A DNA stretch of 64,000 nt from a virus, in the IMG/VR virus record IMGVR_UViG_3300042389_000994, positions 2,599 through 66,598 of that record. One strand, 5' to 3'. Under the pieces are notes generated by a model. That model saw only the letters and a program-made list of their open reading frames with translations. It had not been told where the DNA came from and made no database searches. The translations under genes and the position numbers were made by a program. Positions 649 through 63,789 of this stretch are shown here, one piece after another (within the stretch, counting starts at the first letter, position 1; each line of letters opens with the position of its first letter).

Positions 649-3600
649 ATGGCAAATATTTTTGATGACTTAGAGAATCAAGATGGTTTAGTTGTAGATG
701 AAAAAGAACTTTTAAGGAGAAAACTAGAGGCACAGCAAAACCCGTTTTTAGCCTCCGAGCAGGCTGCTAGCAATATGCCTGCAAGCCCCCTGCAAGAGCG
801 GTTTGACACGGGTATAGTTGAGAGAATGAAAATCCCTACTCTAAAGGGGCAGGATGTTTCTATTGATGAGCAAACGGGATTAACAACAAGTATACCATCC
901 GCAGTTGAGCCAGAGAAAATAAAGACAGAGGCATCCGTTGTGTCAGACGATGACCTTAATTCTCTTGATAAAGGCGGCAAAAAAGACCTTACCGGAACGC
1001 TTGATGATTTGACTAAGAAATTCGGAAAGCATGGAATAACATTTAAAGTAAATGCGGATGGTGGGTACGAAACAGGCAGGTATGAACGAATAGAGGCAAT
1101 AGCGGCCAATCAAACCAAAAAGGTCATCTATTATGATGCATTCACAAAGTCTATTGTTAAGTCCGATGCAAATGAATTGAAATCATTCATCAAGTCAAAT
1201 GCAATAAAGACCAATTATGTACCACGAAATAGGGAAGAAGCGGAAACCATTCAGGCGTACTCCAAGCAAGGACTTGACTATGCCTTAGTCAAGAAGAATA
1301 ACGATGACATGAAAGCATTGGAAACCTCTCTCAAAGAGGCCAATGCTATAAATGATTTAATTGAGTCAAATGCTAGAAAGGCAGCAACTTCAACCGGAAA
1401 AGTGGCTCTTGCGTATAAGGCAAAAGCAAAAGAGTTGGAGTCCCAGTTTAAGAGTGAATACGGAGCAACGCCTCAAGCATATATTGACTCAAACTCCCAA
1501 AAATTAAAATCTCTTCGTGATGTCAAGATATCAAATCTTGATAAAAGCATAAATGCCGATAGAGAGATTCAAGGAAGAGCAAAGGTTCTTGATGAGAAAG
1601 CCAAGGGGTTACTTGGTGAGTCAAATAAATTACTTGAAGAATCCAAAAAGATATCAATAACAGGACTAGGAATCCCTTTGTTCAAAGAAGATGGAAGCTT
1701 CAACGAGGATGGCTTTAAAAAGATTGCCCCGAATGAAGCAAATCAAGGGGTTATAAATCAAATCAGACACAACCTAACACTGTCCGATAACTATCGCAAG
1801 GCTGCCTATTCGGGTAAGCTTCAAGCAATGAATTATCTAAGTTCGCAGCAAAACAAAAACCTGCAGGATCAGTATGTTAGCAATTGGGAGGGGTTTCTCA
1901 ACAACGCAACTAATTCGTATAGAAACGCCGAATCAACCATGCTTTCACTAGCAACATCTGCTGCGAAATGGGCCGGTAAGGAAGAGTTGGCAAAACTATG
2001 GAACGACAGGATGCTTGAACAGATGTACAAGCCACCCTTGGATGTTTCATCTGATCAAGAATTGATTAACCTAATCCGTCAATATGGTGACCCGGATGAT
2101 TACTTGAAATCACTTGGTCCAGATCCATTGAGGGCATTTAACGCAGCGGCCAACATGACCGTTAGCAGTATGCTGCTCTTTCTTCCACAAATGGCTGCAG
2201 CATCGGGGACGGGGGCTGGTATTTCGGGAACACTTGCTGCTCTTGGAACTTTAGCCACCACAAAGAATCCGGCATTGGCTAGACAAGCTTTTGTAACCGG
2301 GGCATCAACGGGTTCTAGAGTCGGAGCGCAATATGTTGCTCCAACAAGTTTGGAGTATTCCACGTCCCTCATTGATGCAATTAGAAAAAAGTATCCAACC
2401 ATAGAGGAGGCGAGAGGAAAGGATTGGTGGAATGACAAGGAGATAATGGATGAGGCGTTGAGAATCGGCGTTAGTAGGGGTATACCCATTACTGGGGCTG
2501 GTGCAATGTTTGATCTTTTATCCAAAAAGTTTGCCCCTTTAGCCACGGCAAGCAAGGCAAGAAGGGTTGGTCAAACACTTGCGGTTGGTGCGGCAATTTC
2601 TCCGGTTATTGAGGGAGCAGGTGAAGCAGCGGCTCAATACGCCTCTGTCGGAGAACTTGACTGGAAAGACATCATTGATGAATCGGTTGGTTCATTAGGG
2701 TCAAGTACTGTTATTCCAACATTGCCATACGAGGTTTACTCTCAATTAAACAAAGACTACTACATCAATCTAGCCGACAAGATGGCTAAGAGTCCATCAT
2801 TCTTAGGCTCTATGGAAGAAAGCATGGAGCAGATAAGGGATTGGACTGGACGAATGAAAGCCACTAGGCAAATAACCGATGATGTTGAAAGGCAGATAAT
2901 GGGTAACATGTCGGCCATCTTGGAAGCGAGGAAGTTGCTCACAAGTCCTGATGCGTCAAATTCGGAGAGAATATATAATCGTCTTTTTGGAACAAAATCA
3001 GCAACAGAAGAAAGGCTATCAAAACTCCTCTTGGCTCAAAAGAAGATGGAGGAAACCCCGAAGATTAATCGGGAACTGCAGAGGAGGATTCAAGAGGAAA
3101 TAGATTACACGGTCACAAATAAAAAGCCAATTGACAAACAACAGGCCGTAAATCTCACTCCAATCATTGGGTCGGAGGGAGCGATGTACAAGATTGGTGA
3201 TACACTTGTCACAAGGGATGATGTCAAAGAGGCATTAGTTGACAAGGAGAAAGCCAAGGAGATGGGATTGAAGGAGGATTTCTCCAACCTATCCATTGAG
3301 AATGATCAGGTGTTAAAAGATGTCGTAAAGCAGGTATCCCCCAAGAAAGTTTTATTCCAGCAACCCGGTGTGTCCGACACACCATCTTCGGGAAAAACCA
3401 TCGTGTTCCACGGTGGTACACTTGAAGGAGAGGGCAATATTTATGTTTCTCCATCACGTGAACAAGCCGCTGAGTACGCGAAAATGAGTATGACCTCAGT
3501 AATGGAATTTGAGGTTGACCCCGAAAGCATGGCTTCAGAGCAAGAGGTTCGTGATGCATTTGAGGAACTTGGGTTGCAATTGCCTGAAGGGTATAATTTG

Positions 3601-15107: not shown

Positions 15108-15123
15108 GTGTGTCGGACACACT
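15107..15123. repeat. Dispersed palindrome, perfect copy, in the gap between convergent genes
   Basis: AGTGTGTC-G-GACACACT lies between the + gene ending 15107 and the - gene ending 15128. Confidence 0.95.
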
Positions 15124-18038: not shown

Positions 18039-19294
18039 AAAAAATAATCACACTTAAAGTGATTCAATGTGTAGTCTTTTTTCTTTATAACCGATGAATA
18101 TATTTTTGATTCTATACCCCCCTTAGAGAACACCCAATATACATCGTTTTTCAATCGGTCAACTGTAGTCATCCTATCCCTTGATTGCCAATAGGAAGTC
18201 GCACTAAAGTCAATGTTGTAGTATACTAAAGCATCAGCCTCACGCAAAGATATACCCTCCCTCCCGGAAACAATTTGAAGTGCTATAATTTTTTCGGGAT
18301 ATGAATTAAACTCCTCAATGCTGGATGTCAATGTGTGTCCGAACACACTTTCAAGTGCATCATATTCTGCCTTAAACTTATAGAATATGGCGATTTTTTT
18401 ACCCTTGAAATAGTCACGGATGAATATGGCTTTCTCGTTGTTAAGAACGGTAGATTTTCCGTTCTCACAAATGACGGTTCCAGAGCATATTTGGTGAACC
18501 TTGCTCATATACTTTGATGCTGTATCGCAAAGAATTGTACCGGAAGCAACATTGGCAACCTTGTGTTTTTTAAGGATACTTAGCAATTGGTATGCCTCTT
18601 GAGGCATATCCGATACAAGGACATGCTCCGTGATTACCGAGTTAAAGCCGGCCTCTTCTTGGGTGTATGGTATAGTGTAGGGGGACATCATGTCTATAAT
18701 AACACTTGATGCATCTGAATAGTCCTTGATGTTGTACCCATTTATTTTTTTCTCCGTTATTCTACAATAAGAATTAGCAAATGAATAAAAATTGCGGCAC
18801 AACCTAAACGGATTTGACGGAATGAAATACACTTGATGATACATCTGCGAATAAGATTCCGGCGTTGGAGTTCCTGATAGTAAAATTACATATGATTTAC
18901 ACCGCTTAACAATAGCGGAAACATCCTTGGCTCTCTTGCTTGGCTTCGGGAATGCCCCCAGGCCGTGTGCTTCATCAAGGATGAGAACATCCCAACACTT
19001 TTTCCCACTCTTGTGCAGGGATTCATAGTTGAGAACATCAACACTAATGAGTAGCGAGCCAAAGTCGGCGATATCTTTCTCAATGCCGGTGATGGCTTTC
19101 TTCTTCGTTAGGAACAAAATATTGAGGGGGCGGTTGGATACCCCTTCTTGCAATGACAGTTTGTGACAGGTCGCTAACGCGGTCAATGTTTTACCGGTCC
19201 TCACCTGCATAGACAAATACAGAAATCCGTATTTACCAAGAATCTCAACGCCTCTACTAGAGATGTTTTCTTGATAGTTCCTTAAAGTAATCAT
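18035..19294 (-). CDS. SF2 (SNF2-like) helicase
   Basis: LRNYQ, TGKT, DEAH, SGTP, REGISL and QSRDR motifs. Confidence 0.85.
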   Translation of the reverse strand: MITLRNYQENISSRGVEILGKYGFLYLSMQVRTGKTLTALATCHKLSLQEGVSNRPLNILFLTKKKAITGIEKDIADFGSLLISVDVLNYESLHKSGKKCWDVLILDEAHGLGAFPKPSKRAKDVSAIVKRCKSYVILLSGTPTPESYSQMYHQVYFIPSNPFRLCRNFYSFANSYCRITEKKINGYNIKDYSDASSVIIDMMSPYTIPYTQEEAGFNSVITEHVLVSDMPQEAYQLLSILKKHKVANVASGTILCDTASKYMSKVHQICSGTVICENGKSTVLNNEKAIFIRDYFKGKKIAIFYKFKAEYDALESVFGHTLTSSIEEFNSYPEKIIALQIVSGREGISLREADALVYYNIDFSATSYWQSRDRMTTVDRLKNDVYWVFSKGGIESKIYSSVIKKKDYTLNHFKCDYFL

Positions 19295-22181: not shown

Positions 22182-24620
22182 TTAAAAGGGTGGGTTTTCA
22201 TTTATGTCGGACACACTATTGTTGTTAGTGAACATTGGATTGGGTTTAAAAATAATATACCTTCCACCAAGATCTCTACCCTCTTCGGGTGATGTTCCAT
22301 ATTTATATACAGAATATGATGCAAGCCATCGGTAAAACCTTGTCCTGCTAATTGTAAGTTTTGCTTTCGGGCCAAAGTCCGGGTTGTCATTGATGAAATC
22401 ATCATACAGCACCTGCTTGTATACCCTTTCCCTTGATGACAGTAATGGATTCTCCGTGTGTCCAGGCAGAACACCACACCACTCAATGAACTCATGGCAT
22501 GTTTCAGCAGAAAACTGTCTTGTCTTTAGGTTGACGAACTCACTCTTGACTAGGCCGGTTTCAAGGTAGGACTTTAGACAACGAATCATATAGTTATCAA
22601 AGTTGTTCCATTCCGTTTCACCCCAATCACTAAACATTAACTTACCAAAGTCATCCAATGGAGTGAAATCCTTTCGGTAGTGCTGGAACAATTCAAGCTC
22701 CCACTTTCTTCTTGCGAATGAATTCCCTGCCCCCTTGATGGCGTAGTTCGTTGTAATTGCAATCTTTGGAGAACGAGAGAAAGGAATCTTGATGGCATCC
22801 TTGTTTTTCTTCTCAAGGGTCAAGCCTTCGGTGATTACCGAAAACAGCCTTTCAAATTCAAAACTTTTTCTCGTGTCATCAAAGCTTATGATTTGAGTGT
22901 CGGCACTAACTAATTGGTAGGCAAATGATTTTTCAAAATTGAATGCCTTACCGTCTATAGTAACTAGTTTCTTCAACTTGCCAACGCCGGTCATAAAGAG
23001 TCCCTTACCGGTCCCTCCCTCTGGGTTATCACTTATCTCTTCATCATTTAAGATAACAGCAGGACAGAACCCAAGGTTCTTGTAGCCGTGCAAGAGAAAC
23101 CCAATGGTGGACTCCATTGACTTAACCCTTGACTCATCTTTTCTGCAAATATTTGTTATGAACTTTTGATAATCAGTCGGGACATCCCCATCCACAATGC
23201 TTATGTTTCTGTCAATAATATGGTCTTTCCAAACATATCCGCCAAGATCAAAATAGTCTATGCACTCAATTGATTCATTCGTCACACGGATGGCGCAATT
23301 CCTGTAGTATAGGTAAGCCTCGCCCTTGGTGTCCTCAACCAAACTTATGTTCACATTAGCCAAGAGCGAAAGGAAGTCCTCCTTGAAATACTTGGTGTTT
23401 TCGGCGAAGTAGTTATACACATCCATATCGCCTACCTCATAAAGGTAATCAAGCACAAAGTCTTTGATTTGCTTTTCTCCACTATGCTCAATCAAGTTGT
23501 ATGTCACTCGCACAAACAGGTAGCTCGTGCTTCCCTCCGGTGAGTACTTGTAGAATCCGTTCTCTTCAAGAAATTTCTTGAATGCAATATGGACTATTTT
23601 GATTGAGCCATTCTTCGGTGATCTTTCCCAAAACTTAACTACATTTTGTGTCAATGTTTGAAGGACATTGTCAATCGTAGCGGAATCAATATTGTCCCCC
23701 TCTAATTGGTTCCGCAGTTCTTTTTTTGTGACACCTCTCCTATAGGATGCCCGCAGGTCATTCATCCGTTCATCATCCTCGTAATACTTGGTTCCAAAGT
23801 TTTGGCTATGGGAGTATGCACTGTCTACCGTTCTCTTGATTTCTGATTGCTTAAAATCATTTGACGAGTATTGATTTAAAATATGTAAGGCCAAACTTTT
23901 ATTAACCCCGAAATCATTAAATGCAGATGCTAATACATAGGCATTGTGATTCCTCTGCCCCTCTGCCATCGGGTATTTCATTGTCCACCATTTGAGCAGA
24001 ATGTCAACAATTTTGGACTCATCACGAATCGGTATGCTGCTTAAATTGAGTGAACCGGTATGTTGCTCTTTATCTCTGCGATCCATATTCTCCCAAAGCA
24101 ATGACCCCTCATTGATGTAAATGCTTGGGTCATGGGACTCGTAGCAGACACGACTCAGGTTTGATGAGGTCTTATCAAAGTAGGGCGAACTAAAGTGGTT
24201 CTCAAGGCTATTAAAATAAGCCTTGTGGTCGTCTATGTCGGGAGGGATTCGCACCAACACCTTGAGCCCATCACCCGATGGGGATATAAATACCGCATAG
24301 ACATACTCATCCTTGGCAAGAAAAGACTTGTAGGCAAGCATTGCCTTGTTTGTTTCAAATGCATCAAAGTCCAAGCAAATCAACCCGGAATGCTCTATGA
24401 TTGCATTGTCTGCTCGCTTGGAGAAAGTCCCCGAAAAGCAGATGGCCGGCAATTGCTTCTTGAGTTCATTGCGGTCATTCTTTTTATCAACCGACCGAAT
24501 CTTGCGGACGAGCTCTGCCGAAGACCCGATCTTAATTCGGTCAAGTATAAACGAGATATCCTTGTGATAGGGCGTATTCGTTTCGTGTATGTTTTTGAAG
24601 ATTGTGACAGTATTTGCCAT
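22182..24620 (-). CDS. Primase-helicase (BT4734/VirE-N-like primase, PriCT, P-loop helicase)
   Basis: KKQLPAICFSG..HSGLICLDFD..FISPSGDGLK; EGQRN; GGTGKG; ISFDD; TTN. Confidence 0.85.
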   Translation of the reverse strand: MANTVTIFKNIHETNTPYHKDISFILDRIKIGSSAELVRKIRSVDKKNDRNELKKQLPAICFSGTFSKRADNAIIEHSGLICLDFDAFETNKAMLAYKSFLAKDEYVYAVFISPSGDGLKVLVRIPPDIDDHKAYFNSLENHFSSPYFDKTSSNLSRVCYESHDPSIYINEGSLLWENMDRRDKEQHTGSLNLSSIPIRDESKIVDILLKWWTMKYPMAEGQRNHNAYVLASAFNDFGVNKSLALHILNQYSSNDFKQSEIKRTVDSAYSHSQNFGTKYYEDDERMNDLRASYRRGVTKKELRNQLEGDNIDSATIDNVLQTLTQNVVKFWERSPKNGSIKIVHIAFKKFLEENGFYKYSPEGSTSYLFVRVTYNLIEHSGEKQIKDFVLDYLYEVGDMDVYNYFAENTKYFKEDFLSLLANVNISLVEDTKGEAYLYYRNCAIRVTNESIECIDYFDLGGYVWKDHIIDRNISIVDGDVPTDYQKFITNICRKDESRVKSMESTIGFLLHGYKNLGFCPAVILNDEEISDNPEGGTGKGLFMTGVGKLKKLVTIDGKAFNFEKSFAYQLVSADTQIISFDDTRKSFEFERLFSVITEGLTLEKKNKDAIKIPFSRSPKIAITTNYAIKGAGNSFARRKWELELFQHYRKDFTPLDDFGKLMFSDWGETEWNNFDNYMIRCLKSYLETGLVKSEFVNLKTRQFSAETCHEFIEWCGVLPGHTENPLLSSRERVYKQVLYDDFINDNPDFGPKAKLTISRTRFYRWLASYSVYKYGTSPEEGRDLGGRYIIFKPNPMFTNNNSVSDINENPPF

Positions 24621-24643
24621 CTAATTCCTTTTTTTATTTATCC

Positions 24644-24768
24644 TTGTCATCTGATTATCAATACAATGTCAATTATGTCAATTTTTTCTCTATTATATAT
24701 TGGGAAGAAAAATAAAAGTAATATATATATAAGAGAAAAACCAAGAAAAAATCCGCATTTCTGACATG
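24644..24768. other. Origin-like element, copy 1
   Basis: TTGTCATCTGATTATCA..ATGTCAATTATG..AT-rich core..AAAAATCCGCATTTCTGACATG, repeated at 35015-35142. Confidence 0.6.
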
Positions 24769-24771
24769 GGG

Positions 24772-24809
24772 AAAAAAATGGGGAGGTGTGTCGGACACAC
24801 CATCCCCAT
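24772..24809 (-). terminator. Intrinsic terminator whose stem top is a perfect dispersed palindrome
   Basis: Minus strand reads ATGGGGATGGTGTGTCCGACACACCTCCCCAT followed by a T run. Confidence 0.75.
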
Positions 24810-25872: not shown

Positions 25873-26476
25873 TGATTTTGTATTTACTTTTTAGGTTGTT
25901 AATGATTTTTTCAAATGGTAAGCTTTCCCTGACTGTATCAATGTAGGCCGTGACCTTGGCCCACACTTGCTTATTTGACTCCAATAGGTTAACCAACTCC
26001 TCTACCGGAGGGGCCGGCTGTCGTGATGGTGCTGCCGTTCTTGCATCGCCCTCTTCATCTTTGATCCATAATTGAATCCCGATACCGTGCATTGCAATGG
26101 CTTTGGCTGTGCTTCGTTGGATGGTCTTATTTACATCGTGGCTCGTAACTTTCTCCAATGGAATGGAGTTGTTGCGAAAGTCCATCACCGGAAGCATATC
26201 AATATGCTCAATGCCATTGACCAAGATACCCACCTTGACATAGGCTGTCTTGCCATCGGTGAAATAATTGAGGCCGGTGACTGGCGACTCATAGATGATT
26301 CGCTGTGCATCCGGGAACTCGCTCTTCAACAGGTCCCAGGCATTGGCCCAAGATAGATAACTAAGGTTTCCCTTCTTGTTAATCTTTGGGGCAATGTTGA
26401 TGCTGTTTAGTTTGCGGTAGTAATTTGTTGGTGTGTCTAACACACTCAACTCTTCTGCATTTTGTTTACCTCGCAT
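25823..26476 (-). CDS. Sak/DUF1071-like ssDNA annealing protein
   Basis: KKGNLSYLSWANAW, LPVMDFRN, QRSTAKAIAMHGIG. Confidence 0.8.
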   Translation of the reverse strand: MRGKQNAEELSVLDTPTNYYRKLNSINIAPKINKKGNLSYLSWANAWDLLKSEFPDAQRIIYESPVTGLNYFTDGKTAYVKVGILVNGIEHIDMLPVMDFRNNSIPLEKVTSHDVNKTIQRSTAKAIAMHGIGIQLWIKDEEGDARTAAPSRQPAPPVEELVNLLESNKQVWAKVTAYIDTVRESLPFEKIINNLKSKYKINEETHNKLQQHYSRLS

Positions 26477-27620: not shown

Positions 27621-28456
27621 TGTTCTTTAATTTTTTTTGCAACAGGTCCACGCCATCTGTCTGCATTGACAAGGAATCTCGTAACAATATCCCGTGCGTC
27701 GTCCTCAAAATATTTGTCCTCAATTGTTTCAAGTTCTTTCATTGCCTGGATGTATGGTATTGCGCCGAAATACGGTTTCTTCCAGTCAGCCTCAATGATG
27801 TCTGCAATTTGGGACAAGGATGGCTCTTCGTTGTTTTTATTTATAGCCATCTCTTTGACCGCATTTTCCGAAACAAAGTGAAAGCCTTGAACCACATGGG
27901 GGGCCGGGTTGCCTTTGTTAGCATGACACTTTATTACGGTGTAGGCATCACCTTTAAAGTCAAGGGCAACATCAATTGGAACCGGCAGTATGTCAGACAC
28001 ACCGGATGCCTTGACCGCCTCTTCAGATGTTGCAAATACCCCGACCTCATGCATAATGACCGCATAGTCACCCACTTTGAATAGCCTGTAGTGGTATTCA
28101 CTTGGGTCTTGGAACTCCACCTGTTCTCTCGTCCAAAAGTTGACATGGCTCTTCACGCGATCAACATCATAGGTCGTGTCCCGGCACTCACCGGTTGTCA
28201 CATCAACACCAAGGATCAGAATCCGTCCGGCCAAGTAGGTGGGGATGTACCGGTGGCTGCAAAAACTTGGGACCCCTTTCATATGGGGTTGGAATAACCC
28301 CTCCTCGTCAATCCAGATGTCATTTTGTGTGTCAAGTGTTACCTTTTCAACTAATTTGCACTCCAAGTGCTGATACATTGATAAAAGTGTGGCCTTGGAA
28401 TCAATTTCCACCTCAAACACCGTTTGAGTAAATGGACAAGCAATAATGCCTTTCAT
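27596..28456 (-). CDS. Hypothetical protein with DUF3846-like N-terminus
   Basis: L..MY..LEC..VE.V...IWIDEEGL...LAGRILILG pattern. Confidence 0.65.
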   Translation of the reverse strand: MKGIIACPFTQTVFEVEIDSKATLLSMYQHLECKLVEKVTLDTQNDIWIDEEGLFQPHMKGVPSFCSHRYIPTYLAGRILILGVDVTTGECRDTTYDVDRVKSHVNFWTREQVEFQDPSEYHYRLFKVGDYAVIMHEVGVFATSEEAVKASGVSDILPVPIDVALDFKGDAYTVIKCHANKGNPAPHVVQGFHFVSENAVKEMAINKNNEEPSLSQIADIIEADWKKPYFGAIPYIQAMKELETIEDKYFEDDARDIVTRFLVNADRWRGPVAKKIKEQLRKMLKK

Positions 28457-29088: not shown

Positions 29089-29121
29089 GAAAAGAAAAGG
29101 GGGGTGTTCGGACACCCCCCG
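29089..29121 (-). terminator. Intrinsic terminator with a variant of the dispersed palindrome
   Basis: Minus strand reads GGGGGGTGT-CCGA-ACACCCCCC-TTTTCTTTT. Confidence 0.75.
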
Positions 29122-30054: not shown

Positions 30055-30065
30055 TTGATTTGGGT

Positions 30066-30582: not shown

Positions 30583-31290
30583 TTAGTGTTTGTTGATTTT
30601 AATATTTTTGAGAGTCTTAACCCTCCGGCCAGAACACAGATTGCAGGATGCACAGGTTGCCTTGAACCCTGCCTCCTTGGATGCTGGGCATTGGACGGCA
30701 TCTGACTCTTGGCCCTTGTCCACCGTAATGAAGGATCGCCATCCCATCGCCTTTGCCTCAAGCTCTTCACCTTGGTTGTGGACCGATGCCATAAAGAAGG
30801 GAGCATAGTCTTGAGCCCAGGTCTTATCCCATTGATGGGTGTAGCCCGTATGCGACCGGCTAACATCCACCATCGCTGATATGAGATCCACCGGCATTAG
30901 GCTTGGCTCGCCATAAGTGCCAAAGCGAACATACCGGCCTCGGCACATATCAATGATGGCCGACCTCTTGGCCTCGTCCAATTGTCCTATGTCGGACACA
31001 CCGACAGAGCGGAGTTGTGATAAGAACCCGGAGAACTGCATATACTTGTGGGTGTAGCACTTGCCTGTGCCTGAATTACCGGAGAGAGGGCAGTCAAGAC
31101 AGTTGGACTGATCTTGGGCGAAGAAGTCGCCTTGGCTAACCTTGTCTTTGGCCGCCTTGAGTTGGCCAAGGCTGTAGGTGTAGGTTTGGACGATGAGTTG
31201 CTTTGGATCAGCAATCTTCGCGTTGGTGGTTCGTCCCAGTGTGACAACGAAAAGGTTGTCGCCGGAAATGTAACTGACTCGTTTGCTCAT
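30583..31290 (-). CDS. Cys-rich, probably Fe-S (radical-SAM-like) phage protein
   Basis: CLDCP..CY, RFGTYGEP, GYTHQW, MASV, CPA..TCASCNLC. Confidence 0.6.
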   Translation of the reverse strand: MSKRVSYISGDNLFVVTLGRTTNAKIADPKQLIVQTYTYSLGQLKAAKDKVSQGDFFAQDQSNCLDCPLSGNSGTGKCYTHKYMQFSGFLSQLRSVGVSDIGQLDEAKRSAIIDMCRGRYVRFGTYGEPSLMPVDLISAMVDVSRSHTGYTHQWDKTWAQDYAPFFMASVHNQGEELEAKAMGWRSFITVDKGQESDAVQCPASKEAGFKATCASCNLCSGRRVKTLKNIKINKH

Positions 31291-31786: not shown

Positions 31787-31834
31787 GGTGTTTTGTGTTT
31801 AAAAGATGGGGTGTGCCGGACACACACCCCGAAA

Positions 31835-32718: not shown

Positions 32719-33834
32719 TTAGGCGTTGAGGTTGATTCCATCAAGAAGGCGAAGGCGTTGGTCGTCGGACACCCGGTTGAGGATGGCAAAGTTCAGGGCC
32801 TCCTCCAAGGTGTAACCGGATCTCATCAGGGCGTTGGTGCTGATGGCCCGGCGTGGCGATATGATCAGGTCCATCGCAAGGTCGAATGCCCGGCGGCGTA
32901 GGGCTTGGACGGTGCGGGTGGCAGTGGTGTCCCCGGCAACAGCGAGCTCCATGGCCTCATCCACGTTCCACGTAAGGAACTCAAATCGGTCTGTGCTGCT
33001 CGCATCCAAGCGGGTGGCCGCCGTGTAGGTGCGATTGGTGCCGGTCCCGAAGGTGTTTTGGCAGGCAACCGCCCGGAAGTCGGCGTGTCTTTTGACCTTC
33101 TCGCCGTTCGGGAACAGATGCGAAGACCCGGCCAAGACAGTGTTCAGGGCGATGGTCACCTCGGTGTTGGTGCGATCAAACTCATCCAAGCAAAGGATGC
33201 CGCCGTGCTTGTAGGCTGTGTACACAGGGCTCGCGAAGTATTCGCTGCCGATGGTGTAGCCGCGGATATCAGCGGCATTCATCTTTTGGTGGCAGGCAAC
33301 GAGTTGGAAGTCCACGCCTAGGGCGTTGGCGAGCTGCTCCGCCCCGTAGGATTTGCCCGAACCGGCCTCGCCTACGAGAGCGGTGTGGCAGTAGTACCCT
33401 GCACCGTCCCGGCTGGTCGCGATGCGGACCAGGTGCTGAAAGTTGCGGTGTGTCACTCCCACCGCCGTGTGTCCAACACACTGACCGGAGGAGTCGCGTT
33501 GGGCGACCGTCACGGTGATGGCTGCATCCGCCTGGGCCTGGGCATAGGCTTGCTGAAACACCCAATCCAGTTGGTGCTTGATCTCGGCCCGGGCATCGGC
33601 GGCCAAGGCATCTATCATCCCGTCCACGAGCGTGGTGGTGGTCCGGTGTGCCTCGTCGGTGGCGGTTCTTATGGCCTCGCCCTTGATGCGGTCAAGCAGG
33701 TCGTCGCTGACGGCGGCGAGGGCCTGGGCGGTCGCTTGGCCGATGATCGAGTTGGTGTCCACCGGAGCGGCGGGGGTGTAGGTGCGGCGGGAGGCGGCTT
33801 GGGCCGCGATATCCTGCCAATTGGTTTTGAGCAT
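32719..33834 (-). CDS. MoxR/CbbQ-like (AAA_5) AAA+ ATPase
   Basis: GEAGSGKS (Walker A), LCLDEFD (Walker B), H.DFR.VA..NT.G.G, LDASSTDRF, SPR. Confidence 0.85.
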   Translation of the reverse strand: MLKTNWQDIAAQAASRRTYTPAAPVDTNSIIGQATAQALAAVSDDLLDRIKGEAIRTATDEAHRTTTTLVDGMIDALAADARAEIKHQLDWVFQQAYAQAQADAAITVTVAQRDSSGQCVGHTAVGVTHRNFQHLVRIATSRDGAGYYCHTALVGEAGSGKSYGAEQLANALGVDFQLVACHQKMNAADIRGYTIGSEYFASPVYTAYKHGGILCLDEFDRTNTEVTIALNTVLAGSSHLFPNGEKVKRHADFRAVACQNTFGTGTNRTYTAATRLDASSTDRFEFLTWNVDEAMELAVAGDTTATRTVQALRRRAFDLAMDLIISPRRAISTNALMRSGYTLEEALNFAILNRVSDDQRLRLLDGINLNA

Positions 33835-33848: not shown

Positions 33849-33900
33849 GGTTAAGACCCCCCGTGGGGGGTTTCGGCCATTCAGGCCTCGTCAGTTAACC
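33849..33900 (-). ncRNA. Hammerhead ribozyme (type I topology)
   Basis: GGUUAA-CUGACGA-GGCC(UGAAU)GGCC-GAAA-CCCCCC(AC)GGGGGG-UC-UUAACC: complete catalytic core and three stems. Confidence 0.9.
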
Positions 33901-34485
33901 TTCGATGGCGTTGTCCATCGCGGCCATCAGGATGGCGATGGCTGCCTCAAGCTCCTCGCGGGTGTTGTGGGTGTAGGCTTGACCGTTCGCATCCAACCGG
34001 ACGGATACATTGGCGGCGTGGGGGTCACCCAAGATCAGGGGCATCTTGGCGGTAAAGGTGATGTAGGTGGGCACTTTGTCGGTGTCCTGATCGTCGGCGG
34101 CGGCGGGGGCATCTGGGCGCTCGTCAAATTTGCCTTTCAGGAAGTCGTCGTACTTGCGGACCGACCGGGCGATGCCCTCGGCCTCACAGAACTCGTTGAA
34201 GGCTTGCAGTTGGTCCAATGTACCCTTCGCAATCCGGGCGAGTTGGTAGTGCCACTTGGAGTTGATGTTGGCGGGGGTCATGCCCATCGCCATACATACA
34301 CGGTCGAAGTTGAGCTCCTCGGTCTTGGCCTCGTCCGGGTTGGCCTTGAGCCACTCTTGGGCCTCGAGCAGGATGGCCCCAAGGTCTAAGCAGGCCTTGA
34401 ATTTGTCCTCGGTGGTGCGGTTAACCTTGGCGACGAGCGTTTGGGCCTTGGAGAGTTGGAGTGCGGTGATGATGGTTTTTTTCAT
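33895..34485 (-). CDS. First early gene, hypothetical protein
   Basis: ATG ORF downstream of a promoter, with an A/C-rich leader. Confidence 0.7.
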   Translation of the reverse strand: MKKTIITALQLSKAQTLVAKVNRTTEDKFKACLDLGAILLEAQEWLKANPDEAKTEELNFDRVCMAMGMTPANINSKWHYQLARIAKGTLDQLQAFNEFCEAEGIARSVRKYDDFLKGKFDERPDAPAAADDQDTDKVPTYITFTAKMPLILGDPHAANVSVRLDANGQAYTHNTREELEAAIAILMAAMDNAIEG

Positions 34486-34585: not shown

Positions 34586-35014
34586 GCGGTGTTCGGTTTT
34601 GTGCACAGTGGCTTGGACGGTGTGAGAGCGGTGTGGATGTATTGGATCAGGTGGGGCGGGACGGGGGTTAAGCCTTCGCCCAGGCTGTGGGTGTTGGGTG
34701 AAACCATCCCCCTCCCGGTCGGTGGGTCGTTCAGGTTGGGGTGGATGTTCGGGGGGGCGGTCCGCCACCGGCCATCGGATCTTGGTCTTGGTCGGTTTTG
34801 GCGGAGTGTGCCGGACACACAGAGTCATGACGATTTTGGTTTGGGTCGTGGCAAAATCGGCAAAAATTCCGGGCATCGTTGCCGGATTTGGCCCCCCCCA
34901 CGTGCGCACGGGGGCACGTTGCGCCTGGGCGGGCGCACGCACAACGCGGTATATAACCCGATTTCTACAAGTATCTCCCGATTTTTTTTCAGTTATGACA
35001 CTTGCTTTCTCTTT

Positions 35015-35142
35015 TTGTCATCTGATTATCAGGCTCATGTCAATTATGACGATTTTTCTTTCTATTATAACGATTCTAAAGAAAGAAAGAATATATAGTA
35101 TATATAGAGTAGAGAGGGGAAAAAATCCGCATTTCTGACATG
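35015..35142. other. Origin-like element, copy 2
   Basis: Same conserved blocks as 24644-24768. Imperfect 22-bp inverted arms flank an AT-rich core. Confidence 0.6.
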
Positions 35143-35158
35143 TGCTATTTTTGTTCCT

Positions 35159-35359
35159 ATGGACGTACCATTTTGGTATAGGAAAGAAGAGCCTGGTGTG
35201 ACCATCCACATAGACACAGGTGATCAGCATATATTTTTGGCTTTGAACGAGGTTTGGGTTGATGATGATGTGGAGATTTTAAGTCCAAGACATCGTTGGC
35301 CGCTTATTTTTGAGAAAACTTGGGTAATTCCTATTAATTTTGACCCACTAAACGAATAA
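35159..35359 (+). CDS. Hypothetical protein
   Basis: First ORF of the rightward arm, ending just before groEL. Confidence 0.5.
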   Translation: MDVPFWYRKEEPGVTIHIDTGDQHIFLALNEVWVDDDVEILSPRHRWPLIFEKTWVIPINFDPLNE

Positions 35360-35360: not shown

Positions 35361-36920
35361 ATGCATAAAAAACTCACAATCGGTGAGGATGCCCGTGCGC
35401 AACTCACCAAAGGAATTCAGTTGATGGCCGAGGCCGTCAAGAGTACACTGGGGCCGTGCGGTAATACCGTCATTTTAGAGTCCCTTGAACACATTGGTGG
35501 GATGACCATCACAAAGGATGGGGTGACTGTGGCGAGATCCATCGCATTGGAGGACCCCGTGCAGAACTTGGCGGTTCGGATTATGCGTCAAGCATCGGAG
35601 CGGACGGCAGCAATGGCGGGTGATGGCACAACAACAGCCATCGTCATCGCTGAAGCGCTCATCCTAGCCGGTATGGAGGCGGGCCTGACACTAAGCCAAG
35701 CCAAAGACCTCACCATCCTGTGCGACAAGGCCGTCGGCATGCTCAAGAAGCAGTCTAAAAAGGTGCGCCTGTCGGACCTTGAGTCCATTGCGACCATAAG
35801 CGCGAACAATGACAAGGAGATTGGGGCGATTATCGCAAAGGCATACAAGGACGTGGGAACAGAGGGCATCGTGACGGTTCAAAAGGCGCAGGGGCAGACG
35901 AGCTATGTTGAAACAACAATGGGCATGCGCTTCAAGCGTGGGTACACAAACCGGATGTTCGTCAATGATCAGCGCAAGGACGAGTGTATTTTGGAGGACG
36001 CCTATGTCCTTGTGTCGGACACACCGATCAACAACGTCCTGAACATTGAGAATATCCTCAAACCCGTCATTAATGGAGGCAAACCGCTCGTCATTATTGC
36101 GGATTGTTCGGATGCGGTGCAGATGACACTGGCAGCCAACGTGGTCAAGAACGGCCTCAAGTTCTGCGTGGTCCAACCGCCATCGTTCGGATGGCGTCGA
36201 CAGGAGCAGATGGGTGACTTGGCCTTTATGCTAGGTGGGAAGTACTTCAGTGAGCAGACAGGTGATGACTTGAGCATCGCAACAATCGGTGACCTTGGTG
36301 TTGCCCGGAGAATCGTGGTCGGTAGAGAAGAAACCATCATCGTTCGTCCCGACAGCGACAACGAGAGGTTCAAGACCCGTGTCACTGAATTGTGGGAGCA
36401 ACACAAGAATACCGAGCGCAAAGACGAGCGCGAGTTTATACTTGAGCGCATCGCTTCGCTGAGTGGCGGCATGTCAGTCATCTATGTCGGGGCGAACACG
36501 GACGTGGAGCAGAAAGAGTTGTACGATCGGGTGGATGACGCGGTGTGTGCGGTGAGGAGCGCCTTGGAGGACGGGGTGCTGCCGGGTGGTGGTGTGGCTC
36601 TAAAGCACATCGCTGAAACGATGGAGTTGCCCGATGGCGTGCTGCAGGAGTCGTTGAATGTGTTCCGAAAAGCCATTATGGCCCCATTGCGACAAATTGT
36701 AGGCAATTCGGGGAGAGATACCGCCGAGATAGAACTCAATATTGAGAATTGTGGCCCCAACTTTGGGTTTGATGTCAAGAATGGGGAATACGGCAATATG
36801 ATGACAATGGGCATCATTGACCCCGCCAAAGTGACGAAGAACGCCCTCGTCAGCGCGACGAGTGTAGCGGTTACCCTTTTAGGAACAAATGCAATTGTAA
36901 CCAATGAGAGCAGTAAATAA
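35361..36920 (+). CDS. groEL: Phage chaperonin GroEL
   Basis: TLGPCG, ITKDGVTVA, AGDGTTTA, ATISAN, GVLPGGGVAL, GIIDPAKV. Confidence 0.95.
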   Translation: MHKKLTIGEDARAQLTKGIQLMAEAVKSTLGPCGNTVILESLEHIGGMTITKDGVTVARSIALEDPVQNLAVRIMRQASERTAAMAGDGTTTAIVIAEALILAGMEAGLTLSQAKDLTILCDKAVGMLKKQSKKVRLSDLESIATISANNDKEIGAIIAKAYKDVGTEGIVTVQKAQGQTSYVETTMGMRFKRGYTNRMFVNDQRKDECILEDAYVLVSDTPINNVLNIENILKPVINGGKPLVIIADCSDAVQMTLAANVVKNGLKFCVVQPPSFGWRRQEQMGDLAFMLGGKYFSEQTGDDLSIATIGDLGVARRIVVGREETIIVRPDSDNERFKTRVTELWEQHKNTERKDEREFILERIASLSGGMSVIYVGANTDVEQKELYDRVDDAVCAVRSALEDGVLPGGGVALKHIAETMELPDGVLQESLNVFRKAIMAPLRQIVGNSGRDTAEIELNIENCGPNFGFDVKNGEYGNMMTMGIIDPAKVTKNALVSATSVAVTLLGTNAIVTNESSK

Positions 36921-37161: not shown

Positions 37162-37552
37162 ACTCATTCAGCTCTTCGGCTGGTAGGCGCATGTTCCTTT
37201 GAGCGTAAGGGGCATCGCCTCGGTACATCGGGTTGGACCATCGTGTGTCCGGCACACCCTCCTCGCCGTTGAGTTTGCGGTAAACCCCGTTGATGATTCG
37301 GTTGGCGAGTGGGGTTAGGGAGTAAAGCTTGGATGGTTTCTCACGCACAACACCGATAAGACCGCGGTTAACGAGGGACTCAATACGCTTCTTGTCCCAT
37401 TTCATCCCTATTTGTGCAAGTTTGAGCCGTCTTGCATTGAAGATTTTTTCGGGGTGCAGGAAAAGGAGTAGTTCAAGGTCCGCTATTTCTATCGCCCAAC
37501 GGTACTTGACATAGAGGCGAACTAGTTTGAAGTATTTTAAGTAGTTTTTCAT
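37103..37552 (-). CDS. Probable winged-helix DNA-binding protein
   Basis: Start MKNYLKY at 37552. ADLELLLFL..LVNRGLI..LYSLTP pattern. The only antisense gene in the rightward arm. Confidence 0.55.
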   Translation of the reverse strand: MKNYLKYFKLVRLYVKYRWAIEIADLELLLFLHPEKIFNARRLKLAQIGMKWDKKRIESLVNRGLIGVVREKPSKLYSLTPLANRIINGVYRKLNGEEGVPDTRWSNPMYRGDAPYAQRNMRLPAEELNESIKRQRRRALELPSIDDHQ

Positions 37553-43209: not shown

Positions 43210-43612
43210 ACTCCTCACGGTCCTGTTCTTGTTTGTGGGTTGCAGCAAGAAAACCGTCACTCAGATTGAGTATCGGACAAGGGTTGACATTCAGCGCGAC
43301 ACCGTGCAGATGCCGGTCATTGTGGAAACAGCCATCCCATCGCCATGCGATACCAACGGGATACTCAAGGACTTTAAGTTTGAAACCCAAGCCGGCCCAA
43401 CAAAGGTTAAGTTGGCGGTTGAAAAGAATCGCATAATCGTCAAACTAAAAACGGACACGATAAGGATTGGCTATAGGAGTGTGTCCGACACACTGTTTGT
43501 TTATAAGGACAAGATCACAACCAAAAAGGTCACGCCAAGGTGGGCATGGCAGCTGCTGATTGCCAATATCGTTGTAGCCATCGGGATTTTACTATATTTG
43601 CGTTTGAAATGA
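43187..43612 (+). CDS. Probable unimolecular spanin
   Basis: Lipobox LFLFVG-C at the N-terminus, beta-rich middle and a C-terminal TM. Overlaps the endolysin. Confidence 0.65.
   Translation: MATSIHLKLLTVLFLFVGCSKKTVTQIEYRTRVDIQRDTVQMPVIVETAIPSPCDTNGILKDFKFETQAGPTKVKLAVEKNRIIVKLKTDTIRIGYRSVSDTLFVYKDKITTKKVTPRWAWQLLIANIVVAIGILLYLRLK
43478..43494. repeat. Dispersed palindrome, perfect copy (in frame, SVSDTL)
   Basis: AGTGTGTC-C-GACACACT. Confidence 0.95.
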
Positions 43613-51573: not shown

Positions 51574-53082
51574 ATGCCAGTTAACGCATCTCCCAGTTTT
51601 GCCTTACAGCCAAGCGCTTATAGGCAAGCCATTAGCACCAACTATATTAGTAGTGCTAACTTCAACTTTGCAAACCAATACTTGCCCGATCTCTATGAAA
51701 AAGAGTTTGAGCGATTTGGTAATCGCAGCATCACCGGTTTTCTCCGTATGGTAGGCGCCGAAATGCCTTGCGCTTCTGACCTTATTAAATGGGCAGAACA
51801 AGGTCGTTTACACACGAAATGGACCGCATGTACATTGACAAACGTATCATCCAACCAGACGGTTTTGACAATCACCACCGGAAACGTAGGCGGCTCTGCT
51901 GGATATCCCGTTCAGGTTAATCAGCCAATGACTCCGTATCCGACCAATTCCACACTTGCGGCTTTAAACCAAAACATCCGTGTTGGACAGACTTTGATTT
52001 GTCAGCGCGAAAATGGTGTTGGTGTTTTTCACGGCCGTGTAGCCTCTGTCACTTATCAGGCAAGCCAAACAGCGGCTCAAGCTGCTATTACGCTTGACAT
52101 TTACGAAGATACCACTGGCGCTTCTTTCCCCACCACATTGTCAACTGGAACATGGTCCGTTTGGATTTATGGTTCTGAATTTCGGAAAGGAACAAGCGGA
52201 ATGGCCGAGTCAACTCAGGTGTTTGATTCGTTCTTTGAAACCAATCCTATTATCCTAAAGGATAAGTTCACCGTAACTGGCTCTGACATGACCCAGATTG
52301 GCTGGGTTGAGGTCACTACCGAAAACGGAGCCTCTGGATACTTGTGGTACATGAAGGCCGAGCATGAAGCCCGCTTGCGTTTTGACGACTACCTAGAGTC
52401 CGCTATGCTTGAAGCCGTTCCCGCGGCAGCCGCTAACAGTGGGGCCACTACTGCCGGATTCAAAGGTACTGAGGGTGTTTTTAGCGCGCTAACAAGTCGC
52501 GGAAATATTTTTAGTGGCGGATTTCCGACTAGCCTTGTAGACTTTGACTCAATTGTTCAGCGTCTTGACAAGCAGGGTGCTATTGAGGAAAATGCCATTT
52601 TCGTAAACCGTGCTGCTTCTTTTGCTATTGACGACTTCTTGGCTGCCCAAAACTCTTATGGTACTGGTGGTACATCATACGGTCTGTTTAACAACAGTGA
52701 GCAAATGGCCTTGAACCTTGGATTCCGCGGATTCCGTCGTGGTTATGACTTCTACAAGTCTGATTGGAAATACCTAAATGACCCCACTATGCGCGGTCAA
52801 GGTACTTCAAGTGGCACTGTTGGTGGTGCAATCAATGGTATGATTGTTCCCGTTGGTTCTACCAATGTTTATGACGAGGTAATGGGTCAAAACGCCAAGC
52901 GTCCTTTCTTGCACGTCCGCTATCGTGAAACCGAAGCCGAAAGCCGTAAGTATAAGACCTGGGCAACCGGTTCTGCCGGTGGCGCTGCAACAAGCGACCT
53001 TGACGCTTTGGAGGTACATTACTTGTCTGAGCGCGCTGTCTGCACTTTGGGAGCAAACAACTTCTTCTTGTTCCAAAGCTAA
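51574..53082 (+). CDS. Major capsid protein
   Basis: Position after the scaffold gene with a strong terminator downstream. WAEQGRLH, GSEFRKG and GTEG motifs. Confidence 0.8.
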   Translation: MPVNASPSFALQPSAYRQAISTNYISSANFNFANQYLPDLYEKEFERFGNRSITGFLRMVGAEMPCASDLIKWAEQGRLHTKWTACTLTNVSSNQTVLTITTGNVGGSAGYPVQVNQPMTPYPTNSTLAALNQNIRVGQTLICQRENGVGVFHGRVASVTYQASQTAAQAAITLDIYEDTTGASFPTTLSTGTWSVWIYGSEFRKGTSGMAESTQVFDSFFETNPIILKDKFTVTGSDMTQIGWVEVTTENGASGYLWYMKAEHEARLRFDDYLESAMLEAVPAAAANSGATTAGFKGTEGVFSALTSRGNIFSGGFPTSLVDFDSIVQRLDKQGAIEENAIFVNRAASFAIDDFLAAQNSYGTGGTSYGLFNNSEQMALNLGFRGFRRGYDFYKSDWKYLNDPTMRGQGTSSGTVGGAINGMIVPVGSTNVYDEVMGQNAKRPFLHVRYRETEAESRKYKTWATGSAGGAATSDLDALEVHYLSERAVCTLGANNFFLFQS

Positions 53083-53088: not shown

Positions 53089-53124
53089 GGGGTGGGTGTG
53101 TCCGACACACTCACCCCATTTTTT
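53089..53124 (+). terminator. Intrinsic terminator whose stem top is a perfect dispersed palindrome
   Basis: GGGGTGG-GTGTGTCCGACACAC-TCACCCC-ATTTTTT. Confidence 0.85.
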
Positions 53125-62835: not shown

Positions 62836-63789
62836 ATGCCGATATTTTATTTTGATAGCGCATCTTTTTTGACCGCTAGAGCTCTATATACCAATTCAAA
62901 TTTAACGACTCCCGCTAATGATGGGTGGTATTCATCTTGTGGTTATGCCAGACAAGCAACGGCAGGGATATTGGGTCCACTCATTAATTGTTCTGACATA
63001 AGTGCTGGATGTGTTGTTCCGTGTCAAAGTGACCCTCCGTTAACAATAACCCCAACAGCAACCACCCGCGGTGTGTTTGACACACAAGTAGACGTGTCCC
63101 AAAAGGTTGGGGCAATTAAGGTGGAGATGGACATTAATGGTGCTAATACTATAGTTGGATTTTTTTGCCAATTGGGTGGAGATACATACCCGAATTCACT
63201 CAATAGAAGGCAATATAAGGTCCGACAGGGATTCGGTGCCCTTCCAAAGCCTTATGTGGGTGGTTCGGGGGGGGATACCTGCAATGCAGCGTCCACTATT
63301 CAATCAGTCCCTTGGTTCAAAAGAAACTCAGCCGGGACATGGACTCCGATACCATCACCGGCGGTAACTGAATATATTATTGGTGGGGATACCGTTACTG
63401 TAAATTCAACACTTGTAATGTTCATTCCCAAGCCAAACCCCGTTCCGTCCATTTTGAACGTTAGAATAATCCAGCCATGCAATGGATTTAATAGCAACAC
63501 AATGAGGATATTTTGCCCGGAACCTTTACTTGCGGTCAATTGCTCTTCGGTAAGTACAGGGTCAACTACTGGGGCTGACCCCGCGTGCCCAAAGGCATTA
63601 ACCAAACCACTTTATCATGGAAAAGTATCTGGAACTACTAGTTTTGCTGTAAGTGATTGGGTTTTTTCAGATGCAAACTCAGTGAACATCCCAGCGGATG
63701 GTTTTTACAAAACGGCCTATGTATCCGGGCCACAAAATCAATGGATTCAAGTTGCTGGAGGTATAGTTACAGCTACAGGTCTTTGTTAA
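62836..63789 (+). CDS. Tail-associated Cys-rich protein
   Basis: Repeated A.DG.Y..G.V..G.C modules that resemble the C-terminus of the preceding gene. Confidence 0.55.
   Translation: MPIFYFDSASFLTARALYTNSNLTTPANDGWYSSCGYARQATAGILGPLINCSDISAGCVVPCQSDPPLTITPTATTRGVFDTQVDVSQKVGAIKVEMDINGANTIVGFFCQLGGDTYPNSLNRRQYKVRQGFGALPKPYVGGSGGDTCNAASTIQSVPWFKRNSAGTWTPIPSPAVTEYIIGGDTVTVNSTLVMFIPKPNPVPSILNVRIIQPCNGFNSNTMRIFCPEPLLAVNCSSVSTGSTTGADPACPKALTKPLYHGKVSGTTSFAVSDWVFSDANSVNIPADGFYKTAYVSGPQNQWIQVAGGIVTATGLC

What the first reader, a model, noticed from the sequence alone, without database searches (positions are those of the whole stretch)
3367..63085. Genome-wide 15-bp palindrome GTGTGTC-N-GACACAC written into genes and terminators, about every 10 kb and clustered at 22-37 kb
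Seen: five perfect copies (3368, 15108, 24786, 43479, 53096), eight with one mismatch (26431, 27988, 31811, 33467, 34806, 36010, 37243, 63071), two with two mismatches (22202, 30987) and two with a 1-nt insertion (18333, 29102). With 14 fixed bases, about 2e-4 perfect copies are expected in 64 kb at equal base frequencies. Eleven copies lie inside unrelated CDSs, and nine of these use one frame: VSDT in the giant protein, GroEL and spanin; VSDI in the primase and two early genes; VLDT, VPDT and VFDT elsewhere. Three others cap terminator stems, one caps the hairpin at 31811, and one fills the convergent-gene junction. A subset falls at 3.4, 15.1, 24.8, 34.8, 43.5, 53.1 and 63.1 kb, which is 9-12 kb apart (this subset was chosen after the fact). 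Inference: selection acts at the DNA level for a dimeric protein site, in the manner of parS/matS, rather than for an ordinary promoter operator. It could serve phage genome organisation, self-marking, packaging/ejection or transcription roadblocking. I recognise no described system with this site.
Basis: partly seen in the sequence, partly recalled or inferred. Interest (0 to 1): 0.88.

Follow-up and report, generated by a model that had tools for sequence, protein, structure and literature searches.

The report
Phage-wide palindrome with candidate reader protein
An uncultured lake phage and its relatives each keep their own 15-16-base palindrome after early genes, on top of terminators and inside genes, and the first early gene probably encodes the paired protein that reads it.

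Summary
There are 5 perfect and 15 near-perfect copies of GTGTGTC-N-GACACAC against 0.09 expected, plus two 16-bp variants. Ten in-gene copies within one mismatch compare with 0.93 under a protein-preserving codon shuffle.

The feature is family-wide. Related podoviruses carry sister words, such as GTGTCTT-YR-AAGACAC, GTGTCGTTAACGACAC and GGGTGT-YCGA-ACACCC. These sit mostly 0-25 nt after stop codons of early genes, on terminators and inside genes. In-gene copies arise by codon choice. They persist at orthologous positions while the word changes, and they decay where the array is lost.

The best reader candidate is new: the first early gene product (33895-34485, minus strand). It occurs only in array-bearing relatives, is predicted to be a homodimer, and weakly resembles the KorB/ParB DNA-binding domain.

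Strand-specific features show that intergenic copies also work as RNA hairpins.

The roughly 10-kb periodicity is not supported.

This scan has flagged similar arrays, with other words, in other phage families. A published analogue of unknown function exists in Cluster O mycobacteriophages.

The parts
3368..3382 (.). Perfect copy inside the 4525-aa giant protein gene (GVSDTP).
15108..15122 (.). Perfect copy filling the gap between two convergent stop codons (0 and 5 nt away).
18333..18348 (.). 16-bp form (same arms, 2-nt centre) in the helicase gene (SVFGHT). The closest relative has its own word at the same alignment column.
22202..22216 (.). Two-mismatch copy 12 codons before the primase stop (SVSDIN). 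Its internal mismatch is G.U-compatible on the sense strand.
24786..24800 (-). Perfect copy capping a long hairpin followed by T7 on the minus strand. It lies about 100 nt upstream of promoter-like site P2.
26431..26445 (.). One-mismatch copy at codon 10 of the Sak-like gene, 1 nt after the upstream gene's stop. The relative G001 has its own word at the same position.
27988..28002 (.). One-mismatch copy in mid-gene (GVSDIL). The mismatch is G.U-compatible on the sense strand.
29102..29117 (-). Copy of the sister word GGGTGTCCGAACACCC inside a 9-pair hairpin with a T-rich tail. It is orthologous to a G001 terminator.
30987..31001 (.). Two-mismatch copy in the gene 30583-31290 (GVSDIG).
31811..31825 (-). 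One-mismatch copy (U.G on the sense strand) inside a 9-pair terminator-like hairpin between early genes.
33467..33481 (.). One-mismatch copy in the AAA-ATPase-like gene (QCVGHT). G001 has its own word at the adjoining alignment position.
34806..34820 (.). One-mismatch copy between the early promoter-like element and the first early gene, 320 nt upstream of the E1 start codon.
36010..36024 (.). One-mismatch copy in GroEL (LVSDTP). G001 encodes the same peptide with codons that do not form the word.
37243..37257 (.). One-mismatch copy inside the MarR-like gene on the minus strand, 82 nt after the GroES stop on the plus strand.
43479..43493 (.). Perfect copy in a 141-aa late-region gene (SVSDTL). 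The G001 orthologue has a similar peptide and no site.
53096..53110 (+). Perfect copy capping a 13-pair hairpin with a G.U pair and T6, 13 nt after the stop of the 502-aa gene 51574-53082 (recalled as the major capsid gene). Relatives have the same arrangement.
63071..63085 (.). One-mismatch copy in a 317-aa gene (GVFDTQ).
33895..34485 (-). First early gene (E1, 196 aa), the candidate reader. It has a helical N domain, an acidic linker and a small alpha/beta C domain.
24654..24681 (-). Promoter-like site P2 (TTGACA-16-GATAAT, 11 of 12), upstream of the primase gene.
35000..35170 (-). Homologue of the P2 element (79% column identity), at the head of the early operon. Presumed early promoter region P1.

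Best explanation
The palindrome is the docking word of a phage-encoded homodimeric DNA-binding protein. The most likely reader is the product of the first early gene (E1, 33895-34485, minus strand). E1 is made first. I infer that it then binds one site in the leader of its own operon and about a dozen sites along the early operons, roughly one per 1.5 kb here and one after almost every early gene in relatives. There it would damp or block transcription, giving autoregulation plus stoperator-like insulation and early shut-off. Intergenic copies are in addition built into RNA terminator hairpins, so the same word acts on DNA and in the transcript. Each phage lineage has its own word and a matching E1 helix.

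Shown: the enrichment, the family-wide conservation, the selection inside genes, and the co-occurrence with E1. Inferred: DNA binding by E1, and the effect on transcription.
For: The word is read sequence-specifically. In relatives with GTGTCTT-NN-AAGACAC, 122 flank-unique sites with assignable context are perfect and only 2 have one arm mismatch. Positions that cannot pair in a hairpin are invariant, while the centre varies only among the YR steps CA, TG, TA and CG.

In one relative, position 6 is C or T independently in the two halves. On the sense strand, C.A is as frequent as U.G (4 against 3).

In-gene sites are made by codon choice and are kept at orthologous positions in Sak, the AAA ATPase and the helicase, while the word differs between this phage and its closest relative. 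In a nested clade without the array, the helicase keeps SVFEDT but the site decays.

E1 tracks the array. Among 42 assessable loci, 7 have at least 3 palindromes and E1, 34 have neither, 1 has E1 with 2 copies, and 0 have palindromes without E1. An E1 homologue was found in the 8 fetched genomes (of 11) whose record covers the head of the early operon. Each of these has a site 36-320 nt upstream of the E1 start, and 5 of the 8 have one 0-20 nt after its stop.

The E1 homodimer model scores 0.79 against a best control of 0.00. The mark was reached by 20 of 30 solved homodimers and 1 of 23 single chains. The runs share at least 97% of contacts and the partner pLDDT is at least 80. My own alignment was used, so the calibration holds only roughly.

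The top two structural matches of the N domain are the KorB DNA-binding domain on its operator (1r71_A: Z 5.5, rmsd 4.1, 91 aligned) and Spo0J (1vz0_A: Z 5.2, rmsd 5.0, 95 aligned). KorB 8qa8_A (Z 4.6) and ParB-parS 6s6h_B (Z 4.5) also appear.

The putative helix QKS-F(F/G)(Y/H)K is kept in most of the 22 class-A rows listed, and departs in L322 and L330. It differs in each phage with another word.

One relative has three sites 23-24 bp apart upstream of its E1 gene.
Against: Intergenic sites are strongly oriented: the sense-strand centre is CA 59, TA 10, TG 2. In-gene sites use CA in at least 8 protein contexts and TG in only 2-3. A symmetric dimer does not explain this.

All 6 stem-internal variants in this genome are G.U-compatible. 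Five are compatible on the coding strand. For 37243 this holds only on the plus strand, which is antisense to its gene.

Extended stems use G.U pairs and U tracts.

Word length switches between 15, 16 and 17 bp within and between genomes. This suits a hairpin, or else needs a flexible dimer.

The structural similarity is weak: Z below 8 can be chance for helical domains. Foldseek, Pfam and PDB sequence searches found nothing.

The E1-array association is confounded by phylogeny and by exchange of whole early modules.

No binding, expression or RNA data exist.
Confidence: 0.42

Rival explanations
1. The functional form is an RNA stem-loop in the sense transcript, with a 6-bp stem and a 3-4-nt loop. 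It would be read by an unknown RNA-binding termination, antitermination, processing or stabilising factor. In-gene copies would be extra loading or processing sites.
For: Sites sit 0-25 nt after stop codons. The two strongest terminator-like hairpins of the 20-kb early region are built on them. Extended stems carry G.U pairs on the sense strand only, followed by U tracts. Intergenic centre orientation is 59 CA against 2 TG. All 6 internal variants in this genome are wobble-compatible, five on the coding strand and 37243 only on the strand antisense to its gene. Loop length varies between 3, 4 and 5 nt.
Against: The stem is invariant while the loop varies, which is the reverse of known hairpin-protein recognition (recalled examples: boxB, the MS2 operator). 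Wobble variants are almost absent in the class-A word (2 imperfect against 122 perfect). One relative shows no pairing constraint at pair 6-11. Across 38 intergenic sites the sense strand folds better in 17 and the antisense strand in 18. Rfam gave no match.
Confidence: 0.27
2. This is the first reader's version: a parS/matS-like set of docking sites for genome organisation, segregation, packaging or self-marking, with no direct role in transcription.
For: The sites are dyad-symmetric and 15-16 bp long, as parS is (recalled). The E1 N domain weakly resembles ParB/KorB DNA-binding domains. Spacing within 22-37.3 kb is even. Lineage-specific words would suit self-marking.
Against: Sites cluster in early operons and at gene ends rather than around one centre. 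E1 lacks any ParB N-terminal domain by Pfam. The spacing is not even genome-wide or in the relatives tested. Search of the host collection found no multi-copy genome.
Confidence: 0.12
3. A single-stranded DNA hairpin on the sense strand is the active form. It would serve, for example, as a priming or loading signal for the primase-helicase on the lagging-strand template, or as an N4-like hairpin promoter.
For: Stem sequence would be read as B-form DNA with a flexible loop length. G.T pairs are tolerated on one strand. Spacing is about 1.5 kb in the early region.
Against: There are only four sites in about 40 kb of late genes. Sites follow stop codons rather than precede genes. The wobble falls on the sense strand, not on the template strand that N4 polymerase uses (recalled). 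No virion RNA polymerase domain was seen in the giant protein by Pfam.
Confidence: 0.07
4. There is no dedicated reader. Terminator cassettes spread by recombination, as PeSLs do, and the in-gene copies are by-products.
For: Three terminators in the closest relative share about 32 identical bases. Early regions are mosaic.
Against: In-gene copies are not insertions. They are built by codon choice, conserved at orthologous positions with lineage-specific words, and lost synonymously where the array is lost. Enrichment holds over a protein-preserving null.
Confidence: 0.04

Closest known systems
17-bp dyad repeat of Cluster O mycobacteriophages (TGTTCGG-NNN-CCGAACA; PMC4351075, section 8 read)
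   Same: One invariant 7+7 inverted repeat occurs tens of times, both between and inside genes, and is absent from the host. Sites are gained and lost by single base changes. The authors suggest a dimeric DNA-binding protein, and the function is unknown.
   Different: That paper reports little orientation bias, no terminator embedding, no proposed reader with phyletic support, and a single word for the cluster. Here the word diversifies between lineages, sits after stop codons and caps terminators.
Stoperators of Cluster A mycobacteriophages (PMC6550527 passages read; PMC9283540 abstract seen)
   Same: Many sites lie across the genome, mostly not at promoters, and are oriented with transcription. 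The motifs are lineage-specific and go with the repressor. They block elongation.
   Different: Stoperators are asymmetric 13-bp sites bound by a monomeric immunity repressor of temperate phages. Here the word is a palindrome, the candidate reader is a predicted homodimer, and no lysogeny functions were looked for.
KorB with its OB operators on IncP-1 plasmid RK2, and ParB-parS (structures 1r71, 8qa8, 1vz0, 6s6h listed)
   Same: Short palindromes are dispersed over a replicon and read by a dimer whose DNA-binding domain is tethered to a separate dimerisation domain. The role is global repression.
   Different: E1 is 196 aa with no ParB N-terminal domain and no sequence similarity. The fold match is weak (Z 4.5-5.5).
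DNA uptake sequences of Neisseriaceae and Pasteurellaceae (recalled; no paper read here)
   Same: A word is written into genes in tolerated frames and used as inverted pairs in terminators.
   Different: Uptake sequences mark host chromosomes. No bacterial genome with clustered copies was found among the stretches returned.
PeSL promoter-terminator cassettes of T4-like phages (PMC4122927 abstract read; PMC2839356 listing seen)
   Same: Conserved stem-loops sit between early genes in plastic regions.
   Different: By the abstract read here, PeSLs are composite terminator/promoter sequences within hyperplastic regions. They are not written into conserved genes.

Membership tests
Stoperator system (Cluster A mycobacteriophages) | Many repressor sites spread through transcribed regions. 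| tested here: met
   There are 17 sites, of which 11 to 12 lie in early operons.
Stoperator system (Cluster A mycobacteriophages) | Asymmetric 13-bp site bound by a monomer. | tested here: not met
   The site is dyad-symmetric with 7+7 arms. The candidate reader is predicted to be a homodimer.
Stoperator system (Cluster A mycobacteriophages) | Sites oriented with transcription. | tested here: met
   The intergenic centre on the sense strand is CA 59, TA 10, TG 2. Only the centre is asymmetric.
   No search for integrase or lysogeny genes was made.
Cluster O-type genome-wide dyad repeat | One invariant inverted repeat, many copies, both between and inside genes, absent from host genomes. | tested here: met
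   1r71_A: Z 5.5, rmsd 4.1, 91 aligned. 1vz0_A: Z 5.2, rmsd 5.0, 95 aligned. Foldseek found nothing at E <= 0.001.
ParB/KorB-type centromere or operator system | ParB N-terminal (CTP-binding) domain. | tested here: not met
   None of the 15 E1 family members has a Pfam match to it. The protein is only 196 aa.
ParB/KorB-type centromere or operator system | ParA or KorA partner. | not tested
   No search was made.
Intrinsic (Rho-independent) terminators | G+C-rich stem followed by a U tract just after a gene. | tested here: met
   Met for 4 of 17 sites (24786, 29102, 31811, 53096). Not met for the 11-12 in-gene sites, so the family cannot account for the whole set.
Uptake-signal sequences (DUS/USS) | The word is enriched in the host chromosome. 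| tested here: not met
   Every listed row (80 of the 120 stretches returned) holds one site, and no genome recurs with a cluster.
Mobile palindromic elements (REP, MITE, RPE) | Copies are insertions relative to homologues. | tested here: not met
   Alignments show no added residues. Sites arise from codon choice and single residue changes.
N4-type hairpin promoters | Hairpin on the template strand upstream of early genes, read by a virion RNA polymerase. | tested here: not met
   Sites follow stop codons. The wobble falls on the sense strand. Pfam finds no polymerase domain in the giant protein. The last point is weak.

The most novel reading that the evidence does not exclude
E1 and its word form an immunity-like recognition system in a lytic podovirus family. 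The first protein made would clamp a lineage-specific palindrome across the early operons. This would both time the phage's own early shut-off and silence any superinfecting phage that carries the same word. That pressure would drive the observed diversification of word and recognition helix between lineages. The same word, once transcribed, would supply the terminator hairpins, so a single 15-mer would be selected on DNA and on RNA at once.
Probability: 0.2. Interest if true: 0.8.

Novelty: new variant of a known kind. Interest (0 to 1): 0.62.

Why it matters
Genome-wide palindrome arrays have been noted in a few phage groups, but no reader or function has been assigned. This family has 211 confirmed primase relatives in IMG/VR. 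It offers natural variation in the word, clear cases of gain and decay inside conserved genes, and a specific small protein to test. A simple binding experiment with E1 and swapped words could settle what such arrays are for. It could also show whether one short word can be selected at once as a protein site and as an RNA hairpin.

Tried and rejected
Its model (pLDDT 79.2) resembles MarR proteins only weakly (best Foldseek E 0.32, TM 0.41-0.47). The family has 888 hits. It is present in 34 of 42 assessable relatives that lack palindromes, so I rejected it.

For the DnaA-domain-IV-like proteins, no pattern with the word class was seen in 6 sequences.

A phyletic screen of this phage's own proteins against 17 array-bearing and 20 array-free primase loci found no specific protein by BLAST. 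E1 is too diverged for that method.

Sense-versus-antisense folding of 38 intergenic sites showed no overall bias, 17 against 18.

Rfam at E <= 1 returned nothing in the window.

The exact word occurs only once in each of 39 other IMG/VR stretches. Four of these have a second near-match.

megablast of 22-38 kb against phage records gave no match.

No RNA holder was listed for this DNA.

Contigs of four DNA runs were laid on 18-38 kb. Only 40 of 1213 variant places were shown and none fell in a site, so nothing can be concluded.

For E1, Pfam found nothing, PDB sequence search gave one hit at E 0.071, and Foldseek found nothing at E <= 0.001. The Atlas lead DUF3102, scoring 0.90, was not confirmed.

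Four literature searches turned up no paper on this word or this phage group. None of them used the word itself or the GroEL or giant-protein features as a term, so this is weak evidence of absence. Supplementary files were not consulted.
Full report
**Observation.** The pattern GTGTGTC-N-GACACAC occurs 5 times perfectly, against 0 in 100 dinucleotide shuffles. It occurs 15 times within two mismatches, against a mean of 0.09 and a maximum of 1. All copies are at the coordinates given. The window is bases 2599-66598 of a 66,598-bp virus record rated complete. The remaining 2.6 kb has no copy, and the reversed control pattern has none. A 16-bp form with the same arms lies at 18333. The copy at 29102 is really GGGTGTCCGAACACCC, the word of the closest relative. 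GTGTGTC is the most over-represented 7-mer (27 against 3.4 expected). Half-sites outside palindromes are at background.

**Codon nulls.** With intergenic copies left untouched, 200 synonymous shuffles that keep every protein give a mean of 3.93 sites within one mismatch (maximum 6), against 13 observed. That is about 0.9 in-gene sites expected against 10 observed. Shuffling codon order gives none in genes.

**Setting.** The record is a podovirus-like phage.
- A 4525-aa polyvalent protein carries a C5 methylase domain.
- A leftward early and replication operon (15.1-35.2 kb) encodes helicase, methyltransferase, primase, exonuclease and a Sak-like annealase.
- A rightward block begins with GroEL and GroES.
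- Two near-identical promoter-like elements head the early operon and the primase unit. The second scores 11 of 12 against TTGACA-16-GATAAT.

**Relatives.** Primase searches found one GenBank relative (MW202828.1) and 211 confirmed IMG/VR relatives, of which 80 were kept. MW202828.1 has 14 perfect copies of GTGTCGTTAACGACAC, all within 43.7-55.2 kb, its early region. Of 82 sequences screened, 22 had at least 4 copies of one palindrome, and 21 of these were of the GTGT/GTCT...ACAC type. The words found were:
- GTGTCTT-YR-AAGACAC, in many relatives;
- GGGTGT-YCGA-ACACCC, in the closest relative G001;
- GTGTACT-N-AGTACAC;
- GTCTCTT-NN-AAGAGAC;
- GTGTCYT-CG-ARGACAC.

The exact word of this phage is single-copy in each of 39 other IMG/VR stretches. 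One of these is a relative that uses the same arms with 1- and 3-nt centres.

**Position.** In relatives most intergenic copies lie 0-25 nt after a stop codon. The distance to the next start is bimodal. In G001 they carry G-rich and C-rich extensions and T tracts. In this phage the two strongest terminator-like hairpins of the 20-kb early region are built on the copies at 29102 and 31811. The copies at 24786 and 53096 cap long hairpins followed by T7 and T6. The copy at 15108 exactly fills a convergent junction. The 10-kb periodicity is not supported, and only the window 22-37.3 kb, chosen post hoc, is evenly spaced.

**In-gene copies.** These are not insertions. In the helicase, array-free relatives read (D/E)EF(N/D)xT, and array-bearing ones read SVFEDT with the site. 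A nested clade without the array keeps SVFEDT but has lost the site by synonymous changes. Sak, the AAA ATPase and the helicase carry a site at the same alignment position in this phage and in G001, each in its own word. GroEL has LVSDTP in both phages, but only this phage uses the codons that spell its word.

**Strand-specific features.**
- For the GTGTCTT word, flank-unique perfect intergenic sites read CA 59, TA 10 and TG 2 on the sense strand.
- In-gene TG sites come from only 2-3 protein contexts, against at least 8 contexts for CA.
- All six stem-internal variants in this genome are G.U-compatible. Five are compatible on the coding strand. The variant at 37243 is compatible only on the plus strand, antisense to its gene.
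- Extended stems use G.U pairs that would be A.C on the other strand.

These features argue that at least the intergenic copies function as RNA.

Other results point the other way. The arms are almost never imperfect (2 imperfect against 122 perfect). Unpaired positions are conserved symmetrically, and the centre is always a YR step. One relative shows no pairing constraint next to the loop. Sense and antisense fold energies do not differ overall.

**Reader.** The first early gene product, E1, is different.
- An HMM of E1 hits 22 of 160 relative loci. Eighteen of these carry the array by the strict count, and the other four are borderline or do not cover the early region.
- Among 42 assessable loci the association is 7/34/1/0.
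- An E1 homologue was found in the 8 of 11 fetched genomes whose record covers the head of the early operon. Each has a site 36-320 nt upstream of E1, and 5 of the 8 have one just after its stop.
- The model (pLDDT 76.5) has a helical N domain, an acidic linker and a small C domain.
- A homodimer is supported, with a score of 0.79 against a best control of 0.00. The mark was reached by 20 of 30 solved homodimers and 1 of 23 single chains. Contact agreement is at least 97% and partner pLDDT at least 80. My own alignment was used.
- The best structural matches are the KorB and Spo0J DNA-binding domains at Z 5.5 and 5.2. These values are weak.
- A putative helix is conserved in most class-A rows and differs in each phage with another word.

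**Synthesis.** I favour a phage-encoded dimer reading duplex DNA, with a transcriptional role (0.42). Intergenic copies would double as RNA hairpins. A purely RNA-level signal remains a serious rival (0.27). The association with E1 is not phylogenetically independent, and no binding or expression data exist.

**Known systems.** The closest analogues in print are the Cluster O 17-bp repeats, whose function is unknown (PMC4351075, section 8 read), and stoperators (PMC6550527 passages read; PMC9283540 abstract seen). Earlier notes of this scan describe similar arrays with other words in other phage families.

Noticed in passing
window 24630-24800 and 35000-35170, minus strand: Two copies of a promoter-bearing element (79% column identity) share TATAATAGA, TTGACAT and TGATAATCAGATGACAA. 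The copy at 24654-24681 scores 11 of 12 against the sigma-70 consensus. This argues against a host that uses Bacteroidota-type promoters, even though the primase resembles those of Flavobacterium phages.
   Followed up: partly
window 15583-15694: A 40-bp unit is repeated 2.8 times, and each unit holds the different palindrome ATACCC-GATT-GGGTAT. These are possibly origin iterons.
   Followed up: no
Rfam (4227 families) found no match at E <= 1 anywhere in the window.
   Followed up: partly
window 30157-30294: The hexamer GCAGCG is repeated about 23 times inside a gene. Metagenome contig depth at 30007-30673 is 30 to 200 times that of the flanks in four runs, so the stretch is probably shared with other organisms.
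   Followed up: no
window 19830-22172: The 780-aa methyltransferase has no homologue in any of the six relatives compared in full.
   Followed up: no
G005 (L142-L145), both contig ends: A long non-coding array of 16-bp direct repeats contains the half-site GTGTAC. Beside it are three full sites spaced 23-24 bp apart, just upstream of that phage's E1 gene.
   Followed up: partly
whole record: GATCAG is the most over-represented 6-mer under a maximal-order Markov model (32 against 12.3 expected).
   Followed up: no
window 37583-37918: The DUF5872 protein next to the MarR-like gene is 95% identical to its G001 homologue, far above the genome average. In relatives with the GTGTCTT word it carries an in-gene site (VSSKTP).
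   Followed up: no
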